64,000 bases of DNA from a virus (IMGVR_UViG_3300031998_000003:64001-128000); one strand, 5' to 3'. Counted from the first letter of the stretch, positions 11,066-61,723 are shown. Notes: generated by a model from the sequence alone, not told the origin. A program made the numbers and translations.

Positions 11066-11848
11066 TCAGTCCCTCCTGTATTTTAAATGATAATGTTCGA
11101 TGATCTTATTCAAATCATTCGCGAACAATTTCTGAATATCGGTCATCCATGGATGATTATCACAAATGATTCCTTTCTTTTGGTCGACTTTATTCTCAGA
11201 AGGATCAGCCACGCTCAAGTATCGGTTATAATCAAAGAACAATCTGATGATACGATCATCCACATCAATCAGTTTATCTGGATTCTTAAATATGACTGTG
11301 CAGCTGCCTGTTGAATCCATGAAAATGATATCAATGTTTGCTTCCGCAGAATAACACCTTTCCTCTGTATTGGTGTCAATATGAAGCTGATGCCATTTGA
11401 TTCGATCAACAAATGCTTTCTGAACAGAATTTTTCAGAGCTTTATATAACAAATCTTGTTTCGGAAAACGGACATAACATGACCGTTCACGATACGTCTC
11501 TTCCTTCATTAATACATAATCTGGATTATCGTAAACAGTTGAATGTACCGCATAACTCTGCATGTTTTTATCTATTTTCGAATCCAATACGACGATTGCA
11601 CGAACTTTCGGATTCCCCATGATCAAATTCAGGATGTTAATGATGTCATATTCTGTATCTTCTTCTTCGAATTGAATACCGACAATAATTTCATCCGTGA
11701 ACAGAAAATCAGAAATACCATACAGAAGTTCATATCGTAATACAACGTCACAATAGAATGTTGATTTACGATGTTGACTCTTTTCATCATAAACATTCTT
11801 CAAAAATGGCTGAATTCGAATGTTTTTCATTATTGAACATCCTTTCAA
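11066..11848 (-). CDS. Hypothetical protein
   Basis: 260-aa ORF. Confidence 0.65.
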   Translation of the reverse strand: MKGCSIMKNIRIQPFLKNVYDEKSQHRKSTFYCDVVLRYELLYGISDFLFTDEIIVGIQFEEEDTEYDIINILNLIMGNPKVRAIVVLDSKIDKNMQSYAVHSTVYDNPDYVLMKEETYRERSCYVRFPKQDLLYKALKNSVQKAFVDRIKWHQLHIDTNTEERCYSAEANIDIIFMDSTGSCTVIFKNPDKLIDVDDRIIRLFFDYNRYLSVADPSENKVDQKKGIICDNHPWMTDIQKLFANDLNKIIEHYHLKYRRD

Positions 11849-47176: not shown

Positions 47177-47264
47177 ATATGGCATAGTGGAATATACAAA
47201 CACTATTGTTGAATGCCGAATGGTTCCTGCAGCCGATAAGTGCAGGAGAAACGGAGGAATCATT

Positions 47265-49079
47265 ATGACTATCGAAGAAATCAAAGCAAAACAGAGTGAG
47301 CTTATGATCAAACATGCAAAGCTCGGATGCGAAATTCTTGGAAAGGAGGTATGTGCTGAAATTTCTCAATGGAGAGATGCTGGTATTGAACTTTCACAGA
47401 ATATTTCTGACAGATCTCAGCAGCAGCTGATGTCGGTTATCAATGCTGATACGATTCTGAAGAACCTTTCAAGTATGGATGCATCCATTTTGGAAGGCGC
47501 TGTAGATCTTGATAAGGTTAGACAGAATGCAGATCAGCTGAAGAACAATATTGAGTCTGATCTCAACAATTGGGAACTCATTCTTCATGCACTTTTTGCG
47601 CTTTCATGTATCGATGAAAATGAGCCTGTTCAGAAGCCAGATCCTCAGCCAAAGCCGGCCAATGAATCGATCAATACCGATAAAAACGATTCACCGAAGG
47701 GTGATTTCATTGATCCAGAACTTGCCAAAGTTATATTGGATTCAATTGACAATATCGTTGATAATATGTCAAAAGGTAACGAGATGCCTGCTGGTTGGGA
47801 ATGGCTTGATGTTTATCATATTAACCCAAAGCTGCAGCGCAACAGATACATTGTCAACAATGAAACTGAAGAGGTTGTCGACACGGTGACCGGCTATCAA
47901 GTTGAGTCAAAGGTGTTCAAAGATGGCGAGAAGCTTCTCTTCAAAACAATCGACAGAAATGTTGTTTATGTCCGTAAAAGCCTGATATTTACGGCTAAAG
48001 AAACCGAAACAAAACCGAGCAAACCAGCTTGTTCACTTGTATCATCCAAGATGCTCGACTGGAATTCTCGCATAGATAAAACCCGATATCGTATCTATGC
48101 GGATGGACGTATCGAGGATACCAAAACAGATACATTTCTGAAACCGATTGATGGATGTTCCGTAGCACTTGAAACCGTCAACCGAGGTAAAGGCATGTGG
48201 TTAATCCACGAACTGGTATGGGCTGCTTTCCATCCAGAGGATCTTCCCAACATTCGGAAAACCGGGAATGTATACCGTATAAATGGCCGAGTTGATGATA
48301 ACAGACTGTCTAATCTGATCTTCAAAGTGAATGTGGTGTCTTCAACAATGACACACAACAAAATGAATACTCCAGCCGAAACAAAGACTGATGGTGATGA
48401 TACTTTGAAAGAAGTACCGAAAGCCACAAAACAGTCTATCGAAGAAAAGAAACCGAAAATTGAATATAGATGCATTGACTGGATTCCTGGGATCGACGGC
48501 TCGAGATATTCGATCACGAGAGATGGTACAGTCGTTGACAATCGGTATAGAGCCAAGCCAGTTGTGCCGAAAATGCTCAACGGCAAACGTGTTGTCAAGC
48601 TGCTCGGAAAACGAAACAAGACCGCGACTTACACAATTGCTGACTTGTTAAATCGTGCATTCCCGGATCAGCCACAGGCGGTTCGTTCGTCTGGTAAATT
48701 CCGGATCGAGGATGTCACTAGACCCCTTGACCGCAAAACAGTTGCGTCAAAAGAAACATCTGAACGGATGATTCCTGTTGATTGGATTGACGGTATTCCT
48801 TCGACAAAATATTTGGTTTCGGAACAGGGATATGTCTTCAATACCATCAGCGGAAAAAGAATCATCCCGAATGCATCCGGAACAATCAACATGTCGGATT
48901 CAATCAACAGAGGATCACGCAAATTACGGATCCATATGAAAATGGAATCACTGATCTGGAAGGCATTCCATGTGGAAGATCGTCGGCTTGAGAAAGTTTA
49001 CATCGATCATATTGATGGTGATGTAGCAAACTGTGCGATCGAAAATCTGCGCAAGAAAATTGTTGATAGAAAGAGCTGA
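47265..49079 (+). CDS. Protein with four NUMOD4-like repeats and two HNH-like modules
   Basis: Repeats such as IDWIPGIDGSRYSITRDG and VDWIDGIPSTKYLVSEQG; IHELVWAAF...INGRVDDNRLSNL; IDHIDGDVANCAIENL. Confidence 0.75.
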   Translation: MTIEEIKAKQSELMIKHAKLGCEILGKEVCAEISQWRDAGIELSQNISDRSQQQLMSVINADTILKNLSSMDASILEGAVDLDKVRQNADQLKNNIESDLNNWELILHALFALSCIDENEPVQKPDPQPKPANESINTDKNDSPKGDFIDPELAKVILDSIDNIVDNMSKGNEMPAGWEWLDVYHINPKLQRNRYIVNNETEEVVDTVTGYQVESKVFKDGEKLLFKTIDRNVVYVRKSLIFTAKETETKPSKPACSLVSSKMLDWNSRIDKTRYRIYADGRIEDTKTDTFLKPIDGCSVALETVNRGKGMWLIHELVWAAFHPEDLPNIRKTGNVYRINGRVDDNRLSNLIFKVNVVSSTMTHNKMNTPAETKTDGDDTLKEVPKATKQSIEEKKPKIEYRCIDWIPGIDGSRYSITRDGTVVDNRYRAKPVVPKMLNGKRVVKLLGKRNKTATYTIADLLNRAFPDQPQAVRSSGKFRIEDVTRPLDRKTVASKETSERMIPVDWIDGIPSTKYLVSEQGYVFNTISGKRIIPNASGTINMSDSINRGSRKLRIHMKMESLIWKAFHVEDRRLEKVYIDHIDGDVANCAIENLRKKIVDRKS

Positions 49080-49089
49080 CGTTTCATCT

Positions 49090-49121
49090 GAGAACCCCGC
49101 GTAAACGGGGTTCTCTTTCTT
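49090..49121 (+). terminator. Intrinsic terminator
   Basis: GAGAACCCCG-CGTAAA-CGGGGTTCTC-TTTCTT. Confidence 0.75.
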
Positions 49122-49141: not shown

Positions 49142-50056
49142 ATGATCGCACTTGAGTTGATTAAAAAGCTGATGACAGAATCTGGTATCAAATATCAGAT
49201 CCAATCACATCATGAATTATCCAAATTCGGGAGAATCCATCATGTGATTGTCACCAATAACCCAGATGCCGATGCAATGAAACTCGATGATTTTGTCGAA
49301 AGATCCGTCGATGAATATCACGAATACATCGCTGATGTCAAAGCTGCTGTAACCGCGGCTGTCCGAAGTGGTGGTTGGGTATCAAACCAGATCATTCTTT
49401 TCTCGGATACTGCATTATTGCAGCTTCGTGAACTGTCTGGCCTGGCGAAAACGCTGGACGACGATTATTTCATCATCTCGTTCGCTGAACAGACATCTGA
49501 AACGACCGGTTTGAGACAGTTCGTGCAGCCTGTGATATCCGTCATTGACATTTCGGAAGAAGAGCCGATCAACTTGATTGCCTTCGAAAATCTGAAATTC
49601 ATTGTCAAAAATGTCGGATACAATTGTTACTATTCTGCATACGATATCCTGGATATGATGTCAATCGGCAACCAGGTAACGCTGACCAAAGAATCAAATT
49701 ATTACTCACTATCCGACATAAAACAGGAATGTATGTCTAGCATTTATGAATATCAATGTCTGGAGTTCTGGTCGAATATCCGGATTGATCCGAAACTGGA
49801 TATGCATGATATCGACCAGATTCTGATTGAGGCTAATCAGAAATTGTCTGAGCAGGAAATATTCACATGCAAGTCCTGTGGAAAACATTATACTATTTCA
49901 GAAGACGAACGGAAATGGTATGCCGATAGGAAGTTCAATCTCCCGAAGAAGTGTTCTTCATGTCGGTATGATGAACGCAGAAAACGTCGGGATGCCGAAC
50001 GTGCTGCGGAGATGAAAGAGATGTATCAGGAACTTGGGTTCGGCGTTCTTGATTGA
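49142..50056 (+). CDS. Hypothetical protein with C-terminal zinc ribbon (zf-trcl-like)
   Basis: CKSCGKHYTISEDERKWYADRKFNLPKKCSSCR. Confidence 0.75.
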   Translation: MIALELIKKLMTESGIKYQIQSHHELSKFGRIHHVIVTNNPDADAMKLDDFVERSVDEYHEYIADVKAAVTAAVRSGGWVSNQIILFSDTALLQLRELSGLAKTLDDDYFIISFAEQTSETTGLRQFVQPVISVIDISEEEPINLIAFENLKFIVKNVGYNCYYSAYDILDMMSIGNQVTLTKESNYYSLSDIKQECMSSIYEYQCLEFWSNIRIDPKLDMHDIDQILIEANQKLSEQEIFTCKSCGKHYTISEDERKWYADRKFNLPKKCSSCRYDERRKRRDAERAAEMKEMYQELGFGVLD

Positions 50057-50108
50057 CTCCACTGATTATAATTTGTCCATATGTACAACATGTATGTATG
50101 GGCAATAT

Positions 50109-50190
50109 GCTGGTATGATGGAATTGGCAGACGTGACGGACTCAAAATCTGTTGTCTTCGGACGTGTGGGTTCAAGTCCCACTACCAGCA
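50109..50190 (+). tRNA. tRNA-Leu(CAA)
   Basis: GCTGGTA/TACCAGC acceptor, loop CTCAAAA, variable arm, GGTTCAAGTCC. Confidence 0.95.
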
Positions 50191-50297
50191 CTCATCACAG
50201 GAGATGAGAGGTTCCAGCACCTCTTCGCGGTCCCTCAATGAAACTGCGTAGTTTAAGGGTAAAACCCCTGTGTTGATTCAAGGCGATGCATCGCCTC

Positions 50298-50382
50298 AGA
50301 TATGTGTAGTTGAGACGGTTACAATACCGACAAGGGCGCCCCTTGAGTCGGAGGTCGCAGGTTCGAATCCTGTCACATATCT
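50298..50382 (+). ncRNA. tRNA-like RNA with extended anticodon-less arm
   Basis: AGATATGTG/CACATATCT stem, D-like arm, CCGAC-AAGGG-CGC-CCCTT-GA-GTCGG, T arm GCAGG-TTCGAAT-CCTGT. Confidence 0.75.
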
Positions 50383-50494
50383 TCAAGATTGAGTTTCGTA
50401 TATGCTGGATGGCAGAAGCAGCCGGTTGAACGTTCCCGGTGAGCCACATGAGGGCTTCGTAGGTTCGAATCCTACAACGAAACTCTGATCTTGA
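50383..50494 (+). ncRNA. tRNA-like RNA with 10-nt central loop and long variable arm
   Basis: GAGTTTCGT/ACGAAACTC plus TCAAGAT/ATCTTGA; TGCT..AGCA D arm; GCCGG..CCGGT; GTAGG-TTCGAAT-CCTAC. Confidence 0.75.
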
Positions 50495-50569
50495 AATACG
50501 CGTAGCTGGGTTGGTTACAGCGCCCGGGCGCACCTGGGAGTACGTGGGTTCGAATCTCACCGCGTATTT
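50494..50569 (+). ncRNA. tRNA-like RNA with tetraloop in place of anticodon loop
   Basis: AAATACGCG/CGCGTATTT; GCTG..CAGC D arm; CCCGGG-CGCA-CCTGGG; GTGGG-TTCGAAT-CTCAC. Confidence 0.78.
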
Positions 50570-50591
50570 TTTATTTGAAAGGAGGATCGAT

Positions 50592-50903
50592 ATGATCCGT
50601 GTACATGCATTGAAACATGGTGATTACAATAATCAGCTTCCCGCAACGGGATGGATCTATTTACATGGAGAACTTCAGGAAGAAGCCGGTTTCGATTTGT
50701 GTCATATCGATCAAGTTCCTGAAGAAGAAGGTATCTACGATTGTGAAGTAATCCTACCGAATCATGATACCAGACAATGTAAGCTATACTACTGGAAATC
50801 AAGGCGTAGGAAGATCGATCGTGGATTGATTGTATTGGCCAATCATCCAGGTGACAATAAGTTTGCTGAGATAAAATTCAGAATTCGTTCTGACGGATTG
50901 TAA
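50592..50903 (+). CDS. Hypothetical protein
   Basis: Start MIRVHA after AAGGAGG. Confidence 0.65.
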   Translation: MIRVHALKHGDYNNQLPATGWIYLHGELQEEAGFDLCHIDQVPEEEGIYDCEVILPNHDTRQCKLYYWKSRRRKIDRGLIVLANHPGDNKFAEIKFRIRSDGL

Positions 50904-51333: not shown

Positions 51334-51490
51334 CAGTAAATTGAGAGCGGTTGGCTTCGGCGTGAACTGTGGATTTATTGTCATAATGGAACTAATTCGA
51401 GCGGGGAGTATCGACTGCCATGCTTTGATCCCTTGGAAATAGATGGATTGTCCGATATTAGATCCTTTGAAGTTATGGTGTAAATTCGTA

Positions 51491-51623
51491 TTATTAATGT
51501 ATGCAAGTGGTCATAAGCAACCCATGTAGGGTATGAGCTTCCACACAATGTTCCGGCCGGGACTTATGTAAAACTCGCAATTGCGAGCGGGGGCTACGCG
51601 GGTTCGAATCCCGCCATTAATAA
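51491..51623 (+). ncRNA. tRNA-like RNA with ~75-nt central insertion
   Basis: TTATTAATG/CATTAATAA; D arm TGC-AAGTGGTCATAA-GCA; GCGGG-TTCGAAT-CCCGC. Confidence 0.7.
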
Positions 51624-51691
51624 TAAGCTCGACAAAGTGAAATCAATCATGAAGGGTCCGACGCCTTCATGCATCGGATATATTGATATAT

Positions 51692-51904: not shown

Positions 51905-52315
51905 CACATCAAAAGAGTAATTTCAAAAGCCGCATCCTGGAAGGGTCCAGGATGGGTAAGCTTTACCAAGGAAACCGTTGCAGTGCACAAGGATAAGAGT
52001 AATGTAGATATGCTGCAGTTCCTAGTATCGGACGGGTACGAAACCTTGGTTGCGTCATGGGCGCTAGTAAGACGCGCTCTGCCGAAATGAGCCTAAACGT
52101 AAAGCCATAGTCGAAAGGATTCATGTTTACTGCATATCTTGGACATGAATCGCAAAGTAGCTGGTAGGAAAAGGATGATACGGCATATTCCCCTAGTAGT
52201 GGCGAGCGAAAAGGGATCCACAAAAGAGCATGGGGAGCCATAGCTCCGAACACGTGCTTGCGAGTGGTTAAAAACGCCCTGGAACGGGTATGGACGGTTA
52301 TGAAATTTTGATGTG
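51905..52315 (+). ncRNA. Large (~410 nt) structured ncRNA
   Basis: CACATCAAAA/TTTTGATGTG closing stem, nested helices, long-range loop complementarities, loop-E hairpin. Confidence 0.75.
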
Positions 52316-52402
52316 AGATATGACAATGACTGTGAATTGTTCCAGACTATTTGGTTAGCGCGGGATCAGAAACGGGTTCACCAGAATAGTTCATGAGTCT
52401 AG

Positions 52403-52506
52403 ATTGTTGTGTGAGCGGGAACGCACTGGCCACCTAGCGAGCCAGGTATACCGGAGGATTCCGGCGAACATAATTGAAGTGAGACGCATAAATTACACAC
52501 AACAAT
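52403..52506 (+). ncRNA. Structured RNA, ~105 nt
   Basis: ATTGTTGTGTG/CACACAACAAT 11-bp closing stem; CTGGC/GCCAG and CCGGA/TCCGG hairpins. Confidence 0.6.
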
Positions 52507-52507
52507 T

Positions 52508-52596
52508 GGAGTCGAGACGTGATGACCGCAAGGTCAGGTGGTGTGGCGAAAGTGCGCATTCTCGTCGCACAGTGGGTTCGATTCCCACACGGCTCT
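52508..52596 (+). ncRNA. tRNA-like RNA with T arm and non-tRNA D/anticodon arms
   Basis: GGAGTCG/CGGCTCT; TGACC-GCAA-GGTCA; GTGTGGCGA/TCGTCGCAC; GTGGG-TTCGATT-CCCAC. Confidence 0.65.
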
Positions 52597-52822
52597 TCAG
52601 TATGCTATACAGCATACAGAACCAGAGTCAGGAAGTTCTTTCCTTAACACTAGATCTGTCGACGTGCGTGAATGATGAGAAATACATCAATATATCGGCG
52701 GGATGGACTGACCACAACGTTGGGCTGGATTGAATGAAATGGCGTAGGTCGGACTCGGACATGGGATCCCTATACTGTGTCCGAGAGATCGGTTATAATC
52801 CGGGAAACCGGTTTACATATAT

Positions 52823-53148: not shown

Positions 53149-53160
53149 ATAAATATTATG

Positions 53161-53200
53161 AATAAGGGGCGCTTCGGCGCCCCTTATTCTTTTTTTTTTA
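53161..53200 (+). terminator. Intrinsic terminator ending RNA island
   Basis: AATAAGGGGCGC-TTCG-GCGCCCCTTATT followed by T run. Confidence 0.9.
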
Positions 53201-58676: not shown

Positions 58677-58761
58677 GCTACTGTGGCGAAATTGGCATAC
58701 GCGTCAGATTTAGGTTCTGGTGTCGAAAGACATAGGGGTTCGACTCCCCTCAGTAGCACCA
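58677..58761 (+). tRNA. tRNA-Leu(TAG)
   Basis: GCTACTG/CAGTAGC-A-CCA; loop TTTAGGT; variable arm. Confidence 0.95.
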
Positions 58762-60870: not shown

Positions 60871-60963
60871 GGAGGTGTACTCAAGTCTGGCTGAAGAGTC
60901 TGGTCTTGAAAACCAGGAGGGCGTGAAAGCGTCGCAGGGGTTCGAATCCCTTCACCTCCGCCA
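60871..60963 (+). tRNA. tRNA-Ser(TGA)
   Basis: GGAGGTG/CACCTCC-G-CCA; CTGGT-CTTGAAA-ACCAG; long variable arm. Confidence 0.95.
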
Positions 60964-61649: not shown

Positions 61650-61723
61650 TGGGGTATCGCCAAGGGGCAAGGCATCAGACTTTGACTCTGACATCGTAGG
61701 TTCGAATCCTGCTACCCCAACCA
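61650..61723 (+). tRNA. tRNA-Gln(TTG)
   Basis: TGGGGTA/TACCCCA-A-CCA; TCAGA-CTTTGAC-TCTGA. Confidence 0.95.

What the first reader, a model, noticed from the sequence alone, without database searches (positions are those of the whole stretch)
50298..50569. Three abutting tRNA mimics with intact elbows but no usable anticodon
Seen: each has a D arm with GG, a perfect T arm (TTCGAAT) and a 9-bp or longer acceptor-like stem without CCA. The anticodon arm is, respectively, an extended 10-bp hairpin with a 3-nt loop, a 10-nt loop, and a CGCA tetraloop. Stems remain paired, unlike random decay. Inference: selected elbow mimics. They could be decoys for tRNA-targeting defence nucleases (PrrC/RloC, PARIS AriB, VapC-type), ligands for T-box, RelA or ribosome sites, or RNase P/Z processing signals like mascRNA. 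A further D-arm-like remnant lies at ~50243-50290.
Basis: partly seen in the sequence, partly recalled or inferred. Interest (0 to 1): 0.85.

Follow-up and report, generated by a model that had tools for sequence, protein, structure and literature searches.

The report
Non-decoding tRNA-shaped RNAs in a jumbo phage
A 249-kb phage from ruminant gut carries three adjacent genes for RNAs that fold like tRNAs but cannot read codons; the first is strongly conserved in related phages, so it is a working RNA of unknown job and not a broken tRNA.

Summary
Three abutting tRNA-shaped units lie at 50298-50382 (E1), 50391-50485 (E2) and 50494-50569 (E3). Each has a T arm with TTCGAAT, a D loop with GG and a 9-bp or longer acceptor helix. 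None encodes CCA. Their anticodon regions are a 10-bp bulged hairpin, a 10-nt loop and a 6-bp stem with a tetraloop.

E1 is not decay. It occurs in 20 related metagenomic loci, 14 of them found without using its sequence. Compensatory changes occur in three stems, and the tertiary 15:48 pair switches between G:C and A:U. Its closed anticodon hairpin is its best-conserved part.

E2 and E3 are an optional, fast-changing cassette. It is absent, replaced or chimeric in relatives, yet no relative has a normal anticodon loop there.

The "D-arm remnant" upstream belongs to a conserved, circularly permuted cloverleaf RNA.

Most likely these are stable, non-decoding RNAs built on a tRNA body, inside an operon that mixes ORFs, tRNAs and other RNAs. 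The body probably gives folding, stability and recognition by processing enzymes. The replaced anticodon arm probably carries the function, which is unknown.

Decoys for anticodon nucleases are unlikely. Decoys for enzymes that read the acceptor and T arm remain possible.

The scan's earlier notes report similar arrays in other phages. The closest published relative is T4 species 1 RNA.

The parts
50109..50191 (+). Canonical tRNA-Leu(CAA). It heads the non-coding stretch and gives context.
   Evidence: ARAGORN and Rfam, 49 bits. It is conserved in all relatives.
50192..50276 (+). Circularly permuted cloverleaf RNA ('perm'). Its order is: 3' strand of the anticodon-type stem, T-like arm, acceptor-like stem closed by an 11-nt loop, D-like arm, 5' strand of the closing stem.
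   Evidence: Eleven distinct sequences give 97.8% paired cells, 4 pairs with compensatory changes, and 0 of 500 shuffles reaching the covariation score. Folding z-score is -3.2.
50279..50295 (+). Small GC-rich hairpin between perm and E1. It is absent in L004 and L029-L032.
50298..50382 (+). E1: conserved tRNA-shaped RNA with a 9-bp acceptor helix, a canonical D arm, variable loop and T arm, and a closed anticodon arm.
   Evidence: Rfam tRNA 47.6 bits. Covariation in three stems. The 15:48 pair covaries. Present in 20 relatives.
50327..50351 (+). E1 'cargo' hairpin that replaces the anticodon stem-loop: 10 bp, a GA bulge and a CGC loop.
   Evidence: Unchanged in 11 of the 14 independently found relatives. 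It has one substitution in L033/L035. In L020 a TC insertion pairs the bulge and the loop differs.
50385..50492 (+). E2: class-II-like tRNA-shaped unit with a long variable arm and a 10-nt loop holding the palindrome GAACGTTC (50428-50435). An acceptor helix of about 16 bp encloses it. The cloverleaf core is 50391-50485.
   Evidence: ARAGORN and RNAfold. It is variable among relatives.
50494..50569 (+). E3: tRNA-shaped unit whose anticodon arm (50523-50538) is a 6-bp stem with a CGCA tetraloop.
   Evidence: Rfam tRNA 41.9 bits and ARAGORN. Relatives have a 4-bp stem plus GGAG loop, and a compensatory acceptor pair.
50565..50594 (+). T-rich run, ribosome-binding site (AAAGGAGG) and ATG of the 103-aa gene. 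This stretch always follows the last tRNA-shaped unit directly.

Best explanation
E1, and less certainly E2 and E3, are genes for stable RNAs that fold into the tRNA L-shape but do not decode.

They are transcribed as part of a long operon. It runs from about 49.1 to 53.2 kb and mixes protein genes, real tRNAs and other structured RNAs.

The tRNA body (acceptor/T helix plus the D/T elbow) is kept because it makes the RNA fold, makes it nuclease-resistant, and lets the host's tRNA-handling enzymes (RNase P, RNase Z) recognise it. That recognition also separates the neighbouring RNAs and the downstream mRNA.

The anticodon arm has been replaced by a module that cannot read codons. In E1 it is a rigid hairpin, in E2 a palindromic loop, in E3 a capped stem. 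This module carries whatever specific function each RNA has.

Shown here: the fold, its conservation, the absence of a decoding loop, and the modular gain and loss of units. Inferred: transcription as one unit, processing by host enzymes, and the scaffold-plus-cargo logic. The molecular partner is unknown.
For: E1 is present in relatives found independently of it.
- It is present in 14 relatives found without using its sequence: 13 through the neighbouring protein (58-92% identical) and 1 through the upstream RNA.
- E1 is 77-100% identical to the window copy where flanking coding DNA is 56-96% identical. That matches the true tRNA-Leu beside it.

E1 shows selection on its fold.
- Double compensatory changes occur in the acceptor, D and T stems, and 98% of cells are paired.
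- The 15:48 tertiary pair is G:C in 3 and A:U in 7 of the 10 distinct unbiased sequences, with no exception.

The anticodon hairpin is the best-conserved part of E1.
- One lineage has about 16 changes in the body and none in the hairpin. This shows in contigs found by whole-stretch k-mers (table 3) and in L013/L014/L018.
- In L020 the bulge is closed by an insertion, which keeps a continuous helix.

E2 and E3 are also non-decoding in relatives.
- E3's relatives are non-decoding too, and one acceptor pair changes G-C to A-U.
- E2 and its very different counterpart both have a 5-bp stem and a 9-10-nt loop with an 8-nt palindrome, GAACGTTC versus GACCGGTC.
- No canonical tRNA in any fetched locus looks like a recent parent.

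The context fits one operon.
- Terminator-like sites occur only at 49090-49115 and 53160-53189, apart from a weak hit on E3's own T arm. All genes are on the + strand.
- The last unit always abuts the next gene's ribosome-binding site.
- Metatranscriptome contigs of a relative cover 50108-50900, with gaps, but not 49800-50095. This is weak evidence.
Against: - No ends, abundance or processing sites were measured. The RNA-library contigs have depth of about 4, which DNA carry-over could explain.
- The extra pairs at -1:73 and -2:74 are unusual for RNase P/Z substrates and could block canonical cleavage.
- E2 and E3 are missing in about half of the relatives. In L008/L009 they are fused into a chimera that has lost acceptor pairing, as expected for dispensable DNA.
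- E3's covariation rests on a single event; 126 of 500 shuffles do as well.
- If processing were the only role, the anticodon arm should be the least constrained part of E1. It is the most constrained, so punctuation alone cannot explain E1.
Confidence: 0.5

Rival explanations
1. Counter-defence decoys. The RNAs soak up host enzymes that recognise the acceptor/T half or the variable arm of tRNAs. Because they cannot enter translation they are harmless to the phage.
For: Such defences exist.
[quoted passage not shown] Features here that fit:
- The top half and elbow are what is conserved.
- E2 has a long variable arm.
- The E2/E3 cassette turns over fast, as arms-race genes do.
- The phage has no detectable RtcB, RNA ligase, CCA-adding enzyme or peptidyl-tRNA hydrolase of its own.
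Against: - No CCA is encoded, and the 3' end is base-paired. Enzymes that need a free CCA tail would see these RNAs only after processing.
- The most constrained part of E1 is the anticodon hairpin, not the top half.
- The host and its defences are unknown.
- Decoys for anticodon-loop nucleases are implausible without a loop.
Confidence: 0.17
2. Decaying tRNA pseudogenes. Their stems persist only because they are young or because T-arm repeats drive recombination. This applies mainly to E2 and E3.
For: - E2/E3 are absent in L004, L007, L014, L017, L018, L020, L029-L033 and L035.
- They are chimeric in L008/L009.
- One contig shows E3 truncated to an acceptor-plus-T minihelix.
- E3's 8:14 positions are non-canonical.
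- E2 fails the Rfam tRNA model.
Against: - E1 is excluded by its conservation and covariation.
- For E2/E3, acceptor helices are longer than in any real tRNA of the phage.
- The loops are closed into stable caps rather than randomly mutated.
- The non-decoding state is shared by lineages about 17% apart.
- No relative has an intact tRNA at that place.
Confidence: 0.15
3. Y-RNA-like ribonucleoprotein components. Together with the permuted cloverleaf upstream, the units bind a host Ro60/Rsr-type protein, as bacterial YrlA does.
For: - YrlA RNAs contain a tRNA-like domain with T and D arms and a closed acceptor stem, and they occur in phages (PMC4201824).
- The permuted element has exactly that topology.
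Against: - No TROVE/Ro60 gene is in the phage.
- Rfam YrlA gives only 14.8 bits (gathering score 69), on an E2/E3 junction and not on the permuted element. The authors warn that tandem tRNAs can score as false positives.
- E1-E3 are not permuted.
Confidence: 0.06
4. Working adaptors with unusual decoding (frameshift or four-base/two-base reading) or tRNAs with a short intron that is spliced out.
For: ARAGORN reports 4-base and 2-base 'anticodons' for E2 and E3.
Against: - E1's 15 nt form a closed helix, with A where U33 should be.
- E3's loop shrinks to a 4-nt cap in relatives.
- E2's loop is a palindrome, not a U33-NNN-R37 loop.
- ARAGORN's intron mode gives only a spurious 236-nt 'intron'.
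- No splicing machinery is known in bacteria for such inserts (established knowledge).
Confidence: 0.03

Closest known systems
Phage T4 species 1 RNA (rnaC), the small stable RNA at the end of the T4 tRNA cluster
   Same: It sits directly after tRNA genes. It has a perfect T arm (GGGTTCGAATCCC) and an acceptor-like stem but no canonical anticodon arm. It scores only 17.5 bits on a tRNA-clan model. It is annotated as a small stable RNA with no function given.
   Different: - It has no sequence similarity to E1-E3.
- It is 139 nt long with a long 5' domain.
- E1 and E3 keep a full D arm and variable loop and score 42-48 bits on Rfam tRNA.
- T4 rnaD shows no tRNA features in my fold.
YrlA, bacterial Y-RNA-like RNA (Rfam RF02553; PMC4201824)
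   Same: It is a non-decoding RNA with tRNA-like D and T arms and tertiary pairs, including a covarying 15:48 pair. It is found in phages and is a substrate of tRNA enzymes.
   Different: - YrlA is permuted, like the neighbouring element and unlike E1-E3.
- It is encoded next to Ro60, which this phage lacks.
- The covariance model does not match.
tRNA-like RNAs used as processing signals: mascRNA/MALAT1 and the tRNA-like genes of murid herpesvirus 4 (from my own knowledge, not tested here)
   Same: These are tRNA-shaped, non-decoding units cut by RNase P/Z. They release or define neighbouring RNAs in a longer transcript.
   Different: They are eukaryotic or animal-virus systems with no sequence relation. 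Processing of E1-E3 has not been shown.
Engineered 'tRNA scaffold' for expressing RNAs in bacteria (from my own knowledge)
   Same: A foreign hairpin is placed in the anticodon stem of a tRNA body, which gives folding, processing and protection. E1 has this architecture.
   Different: It is a laboratory design. Here the design is natural, conserved, and of unknown purpose.
Variant phage tRNAs that evade tRNA-targeting defences (PMC10264068; PARIS, PMC11464382)
   Same: They are phage-encoded, lie in tRNA clusters, and are altered in the anticodon region.
   Different: Those are functional decoders with a 7-nt loop and a few substitutions. E1-E3 cannot decode.

Membership tests
tRNA (Rfam RF00005) | Cloverleaf that reaches the family's gathering score | tested here: met
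   E1 scores 47.6 bits and E3 41.9 bits against a gathering score of 29. E2 has no match at E up to 10.
tRNA (Rfam RF00005) | 7-nt anticodon loop with U33 and a readable triplet | tested here: not met
   The loop regions are 15, 10 and 6 nt. ARAGORN gives no amino acid for E2 or E3 and does not call E1.
tRNA (Rfam RF00005) | Tertiary-fold nucleotides: U8, A14, G18G19, R15:Y48, T54-Psi55-C56, A58 | tested here: met
   All are present in E1, and 15:48 covaries G:C with A:U. E3 has G at position 14, and relatives have G at position 8, so it meets this only in part.
tRNA (Rfam RF00005) | Single-stranded discriminator and a 3' CCA that is encoded or added | not testable with these tools
   No CCA is encoded, and positions 73 and 74 pair with -1 and -2. 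Whether CCA is added needs RNA end mapping.
YrlA / Y RNA (Rfam RF02553) | Match to the covariance model | tested here: not met
   The best hit is 14.8 bits against a gathering score of 69, on the E2/E3 junction.
YrlA / Y RNA (Rfam RF02553) | Encoded beside a Ro60 (TROVE) gene | tested here: not met
   PF05731 has no match in the 248.7-kb genome, while control genomes do match.
tmRNA | tRNA-like domain plus a tag reading frame | tested here: not met
   ARAGORN found no tmRNA in the genome. Rfam tmRNA gives only a 17.7-bit fragment, elsewhere at 51597-51614.
T4 species 1 RNA (rnaC) | Sequence or model similarity to rnaC | tested here: not met
   There is no shared sequence. rnaC shares only the generic T arm and acceptor stem. 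The likeness is one of kind, not of family.
Protein-coding gene on the minus strand (ORF 50195-50560) | Open frame conserved in relatives, with a start site and a known domain | tested here: not met
   The frame is open in the window, L010 and L016 but broken in L013, L008 and L033. There is no Shine-Dalgarno sequence and no Pfam match.

The most novel reading that the evidence does not exclude
E1-E3 and the similar units nearby are a modular phage toolkit. A tRNA chassis is invisible to the ribosome, and its anticodon arm is swapped for different 'cargo' modules. The toolkit is used to bind or jam host factors that recognise tRNA shape. Those factors include immune nucleases and toxins that act on the acceptor/T half, so this would be an RNA-based counter-defence not yet described.
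Probability: 0.15. Interest if true: 0.85.

Novelty: new variant of a known kind. Interest (0 to 1): 0.6.

Why it matters
Phage tRNA clusters are usually read as codon supplements or as replacements for cleaved host tRNAs. Here one member of such a cluster is clearly under selection to keep the tRNA shape while being unable to decode, and its non-decoding hairpin is its most conserved part. That points to a function of tRNA shape outside translation.

The function of the comparable T4 RNA is not given in its record and, to my knowledge, has never been found.

My paper searches found no description of such arrays. Earlier notes of this scan report similar arrays in several unrelated phages, so this may be a widespread and overlooked class of phage RNA.

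E1 is a good entry point. It is short and has a clear alignment. It also gives three testable features: the closed hairpin, the 9-bp acceptor helix, and an invariant G-1:C73 pair.

Tried and rejected
Searches that found little:
- Single-protein scans of IMG/VR with the two flanking proteins found no relatives.
- The RNA polymerase beta subunit found only a 7.9-kb fragment.
- The E1 hairpin 25-mer has no exact match in IMG/VR.
- The genome search could not reach the ENA/Logan contigs.
- One locus came back without DNA.

Analyses that gave nothing usable:
- ARAGORN intron mode gave a spurious 236-nt intron joining unrelated halves.
- Promoter-like hits are no more frequent than in shuffled sequence.
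- No canonical tRNA in 88 distinct calls looks like a parent of E1-E3; the best is about 0.7 identity, at a level set by generic tRNA similarity.
- Literature searches for phage tRNA mimics, decoys or pseudo-tRNAs returned no paper describing such arrays.

The 103-aa downstream protein:
- It has no Pfam or PHROG family.
- Its AlphaFold model has pLDDT 62 and is all-beta.
- Foldseek against the PDB gave nothing below E = 0.5. No link to RNA binding can be claimed.

Sequencing runs:
- Most runs that hold the stretch are labelled bovine, sheep or goat gut.
- The one clear RNA library covers the region only at depth of about 4, through contigs of a relative. The uncovered 49800-50095 part is not evidence of a transcript start.

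Phage-encoded tRNA enzymes:
- RtcB, RNA ligase (PF09414), peptidyl-tRNA hydrolase, CCA-adding enzyme and TROVE were all sought in the genome and not found. The record is 92% complete, so absence is not proven.

An idea considered and dropped:
- I considered that G-1:C73 makes E1 a histidine acceptor. The real tRNA-His of relatives has T at -1, so the phage's own tRNA-His does not use an encoded G-1. The idea stays untested.

Full report
WHAT THE WINDOW IS

The window is bases 64001-128000 of a 248,669-bp IMG/VR virus record.
- The record is 42% G+C and estimated 92% complete.
- It encodes a split RNA polymerase beta subunit, a UvsX-like recombinase, an NAD-dependent DNA ligase and a dCMP deaminase, so it is a jumbo phage.
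- No cultured phage in the INPHARED collection resembles the region, apart from generic tRNA-Leu matches.
- Sequencing runs that hold the stretch are mostly bovine, sheep and goat gut metagenomes.

CHECKING THE OBSERVATION

E1 (50298-50382):
- It matches Rfam tRNA over the whole model at 47.6 bits, with 15 nt where 7 are expected.
- Those 15 nt extend the 5-bp anticodon stem into a 10-bp helix with a GA bulge and a 3-nt loop.

E2 (core 50391-50485):
- ARAGORN calls it a tRNA of unknown identity with a four-base 'anticodon' and a long variable arm.
- RNAfold returns a cloverleaf with a 10-nt loop. Its acceptor helix continues outward to about 16 bp.

E3 (50494-50569):
- It matches Rfam tRNA at 41.9 bits with a 6-nt loop region.
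- That region closes to a 6-bp stem with a CGCA tetraloop.

Shared features:
- All three have G+C-rich T stems with TTCGAAT.
- None is followed by CCA.
- Their acceptor helices run 2-3 pairs past 1:72. The phage's nine canonical tRNAs with a perfect 7-bp acceptor stem have 0-1 such pairs, and three of them encode CCA.

A minus-strand ORF (50195-50560) covers the cluster but looks spurious:
- It is interrupted in close relatives.
- It has no ribosome-binding site.
- It has no Pfam match.

RELATIVES

The upstream gene (49142-50056, a treble-clef zinc-finger protein) has 43 homologues at 58-100% identity in public assemblies. I fetched their contigs. I added loci found with the E1 hairpin and with the upstream RNA.

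In all, 20 loci other than the window's own genome carry E1. Fourteen of them were found without using E1's sequence. Two relatives (L006, L011) and one IMG/VR genome (L019) lack E1 at this place.

E1 IS A SELECTED, tRNA-SHAPED, NON-DECODING RNA

Conservation:
- E1 is 77-100% identical to the window copy.
- The adjacent coding DNA is 56-96% identical where both flanks are present.
- E1 therefore evolves like the true tRNA-Leu beside it.

Secondary structure, on eight distinct sequences:
- 98.2% of cells are paired.
- One pair in each of the acceptor, D and T stems changes on both sides.
- Only 5 of 500 shuffles reach the covariation score.
- Sliding the partner strand drops pairing to 41-55%.

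Tertiary structure, among the ten distinct unbiased sequences:
- Position 15 in the D loop and position 48 in the variable loop are G and C in three sequences and A and U in seven, with no exception.
- This is the Levitt pair of the tRNA L-shape, so the three-dimensional fold itself is under selection.

The anticodon hairpin is the best-kept part:
- Contigs of a divergent lineage were found by k-mers of the whole 1.1-kb stretch. They carry about 16 changes in the E1 body and none between 50326 and 50355 (table 3).
- L033/L035 have one substitution that opens one pair.
- In L020 a TC insertion pairs with the GA bulge. This gives an uninterrupted 12-bp helix with a different 3-nt loop.

No E1 copy has a 7-nt loop. 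This excludes decay and argues that the closed helix is the functional module.

E2 AND E3 ARE AN OPTIONAL, FAST-CHANGING CASSETTE

Twelve loci go straight from E1 to the next gene's ribosome-binding site.

Four loci (L010, L012, L013, L016) have a different E2 and a related E3 (about 83% identical).
- The E3 anticodon arm is a 4-bp stem with a GGAG loop.
- One acceptor pair has changed from G-C to A-U.

The two E2 versions share almost no sequence outside the T arm.
- Both have a 5-bp stem closed by a 9-10-nt loop that holds an 8-nt palindrome.
- The palindromes are GAACGTTC and GACCGGTC. They differ by two symmetric changes that keep self-complementarity.
- This could mean loop-loop dimerisation or a dimeric protein site. 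I could not test either.

Other variants:
- L015 has yet another tRNA-shaped unit, with a 13-bp acceptor helix.
- L008/L009 carry a fusion of that unit's 5' part with E3's 3' end, apparently by recombination in the T arm, and acceptor pairing is lost.
- One low-depth contig shows E3 cut down to an acceptor-plus-T minihelix (table 5c).

So these two units are dispensable and recombine. In every version seen, though, they are non-decoding, and their helices are longer than a tRNA's. I rate selection as more likely than decay for them, but far less securely than for E1.

SURROUNDINGS

Directly after tRNA-Leu (or tRNA-His in some relatives) lies an 85-nt element (50192-50276).
- It is a circularly permuted cloverleaf.
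- On 11 distinct sequences, four pairs show compensatory changes and no shuffle reaches the covariation score.
- It occurs without E1 in L019, so the two are separable.
- Variants of this element and of E1 are combined differently in different phages. That indicates exchange of modules by recombination.

Further downstream lie other tRNA-shaped units and a 411-nt RNA, noted by other first-stage readers. They are conserved in the same relatives.

Terminator-like hairpins flank the whole 49.1-53.2 kb block, and the only one inside it is a weak hit on E3's own T arm. ORFs, tRNAs and these RNAs are therefore probably co-transcribed and must be separated by processing.

HOW IT MOST LIKELY WORKS

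I propose that the tRNA body is a chassis.
- It folds reliably and resists nucleases.
- It is recognised by host RNase P and RNase Z, so the units are excised. Their neighbours are released too: tRNA-Leu, the permuted RNA and the downstream mRNA.
- The replaced anticodon arm carries the specific function.

Shown: the fold, the selection on it, the lack of a decoding loop, modularity and the operon-like context. Inferred: expression, processing and the role of the cargo.

Two facts complicate the simple 'punctuation' idea.
- E1's hairpin is more constrained than its body.
- Positions -1:73 and -2:74 are paired, which is atypical for RNase P/Z substrates.

RIVALS

Decoys for anticodon nucleases (PrrC, RloC, PARIS AriB, VapC) are unlikely, because those enzymes read the loop that is missing.

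Decoys for enzymes that read the acceptor/T half or the variable arm are possible.
[quoted passage not shown] - Nothing here tests this idea, and the paired, CCA-less 3' ends speak against it unless the RNAs are processed first.

A Y-RNA-like role is weakened by the absence of a Ro60 gene and of a YrlA model match.

Unusual decoding is very unlikely.

COMPARISON WITH WHAT IS KNOWN

The closest published thing is T4 species 1 RNA. I fetched it and tested it.
- It lies at the end of the T4 tRNA cluster.
- It has a perfect T arm and an acceptor-like stem but no canonical anticodon arm.
- It is annotated only as a small stable RNA.
- E1-E3 share the kind, not the family.

My paper searches found no description of conserved arrays of anticodon-less tRNA-shaped genes in phages.

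Earlier notes of this scan describe similar arrays in several other phage genomes and more units in this genome. They are unchecked AI notes. I used them as leads only.

VERDICT

This is a real feature. E1 is a conserved non-decoding tRNA mimic. E2 and E3 are accessory units of the same design. The function is unknown. I class it as a new variant of a known kind, of moderate to high interest.

Noticed in passing
window 50192-50276: A circularly permuted cloverleaf RNA lies directly after tRNA-Leu. It is conserved in 21 of the fetched related loci, with four compensatory pairs. It occurs without E1 in one 277-kb phage (L019).
   Followed up: yes
window 50428-50435; L010 about 11290-11300: The E2 loop holds the 8-nt palindrome GAACGTTC. 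The unrelated-looking E2 of other phages holds GACCGGTC in the same kind of loop. Two symmetric changes keep self-complementarity, so this may be a kissing-loop dimer or a dimeric-protein site.
   Followed up: partly
window 50068-50100: A 15-bp hairpin with an ACA loop lies just upstream of tRNA-Leu and is conserved in relatives. It could be a promoter element of the phage's own polymerase, an RNase III site, or the end of the upstream gene's transcript.
   Followed up: no
window 51485-51630, 51905-52315, 52316-52822: Other non-coding units of the same island are 75-99% identical in many relatives, including L006, which lacks E1. They are a tRNA-shaped unit with a long insert, a 411-nt RNA, and the spacers around them. 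The whole island is conserved RNA, not junk.
   Followed up: partly
window 58677-58761, 60871-60963, 61650-61723 versus the other tRNAs: Three canonical tRNAs of the phage (Leu-TAG, Ser, Gln) encode CCA. The others, and all the mimics, do not.
   Followed up: no
window 47187-49079; L007 11088-11612; L033 728-2749 and 5148-6476: HNH endonuclease genes or domains come and go around the tRNA region in different relatives. This fits homing-endonuclease-driven shuffling of this region.
   Followed up: no
L018 (contig CAMJFV010000012.1): A 16.9-kb contig carrying tRNA-Leu, the permuted RNA, E1 and the 103-aa gene is binned in an uncultured Bacteroidales genome. This is probably a mis-binned phage contig. 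The strong Shine-Dalgarno sites of the phage would be unusual for a Bacteroidales host.
   Followed up: no
window 50298-50382 (E1 ends): G at -1 pairs with C at 73 in every E1 copy. By established knowledge this is the main identity mark for bacterial histidyl-tRNA synthetase. The real tRNA-His of related phages has T at -1.
   Followed up: partly
window 53160-53189: A very strong terminator on the + strand (13-bp stem, then ten T) closes the ORF/tRNA/RNA block right after tRNA-Asn. On the minus strand the same hairpin scores as a weaker terminator-like site.
   Followed up: no
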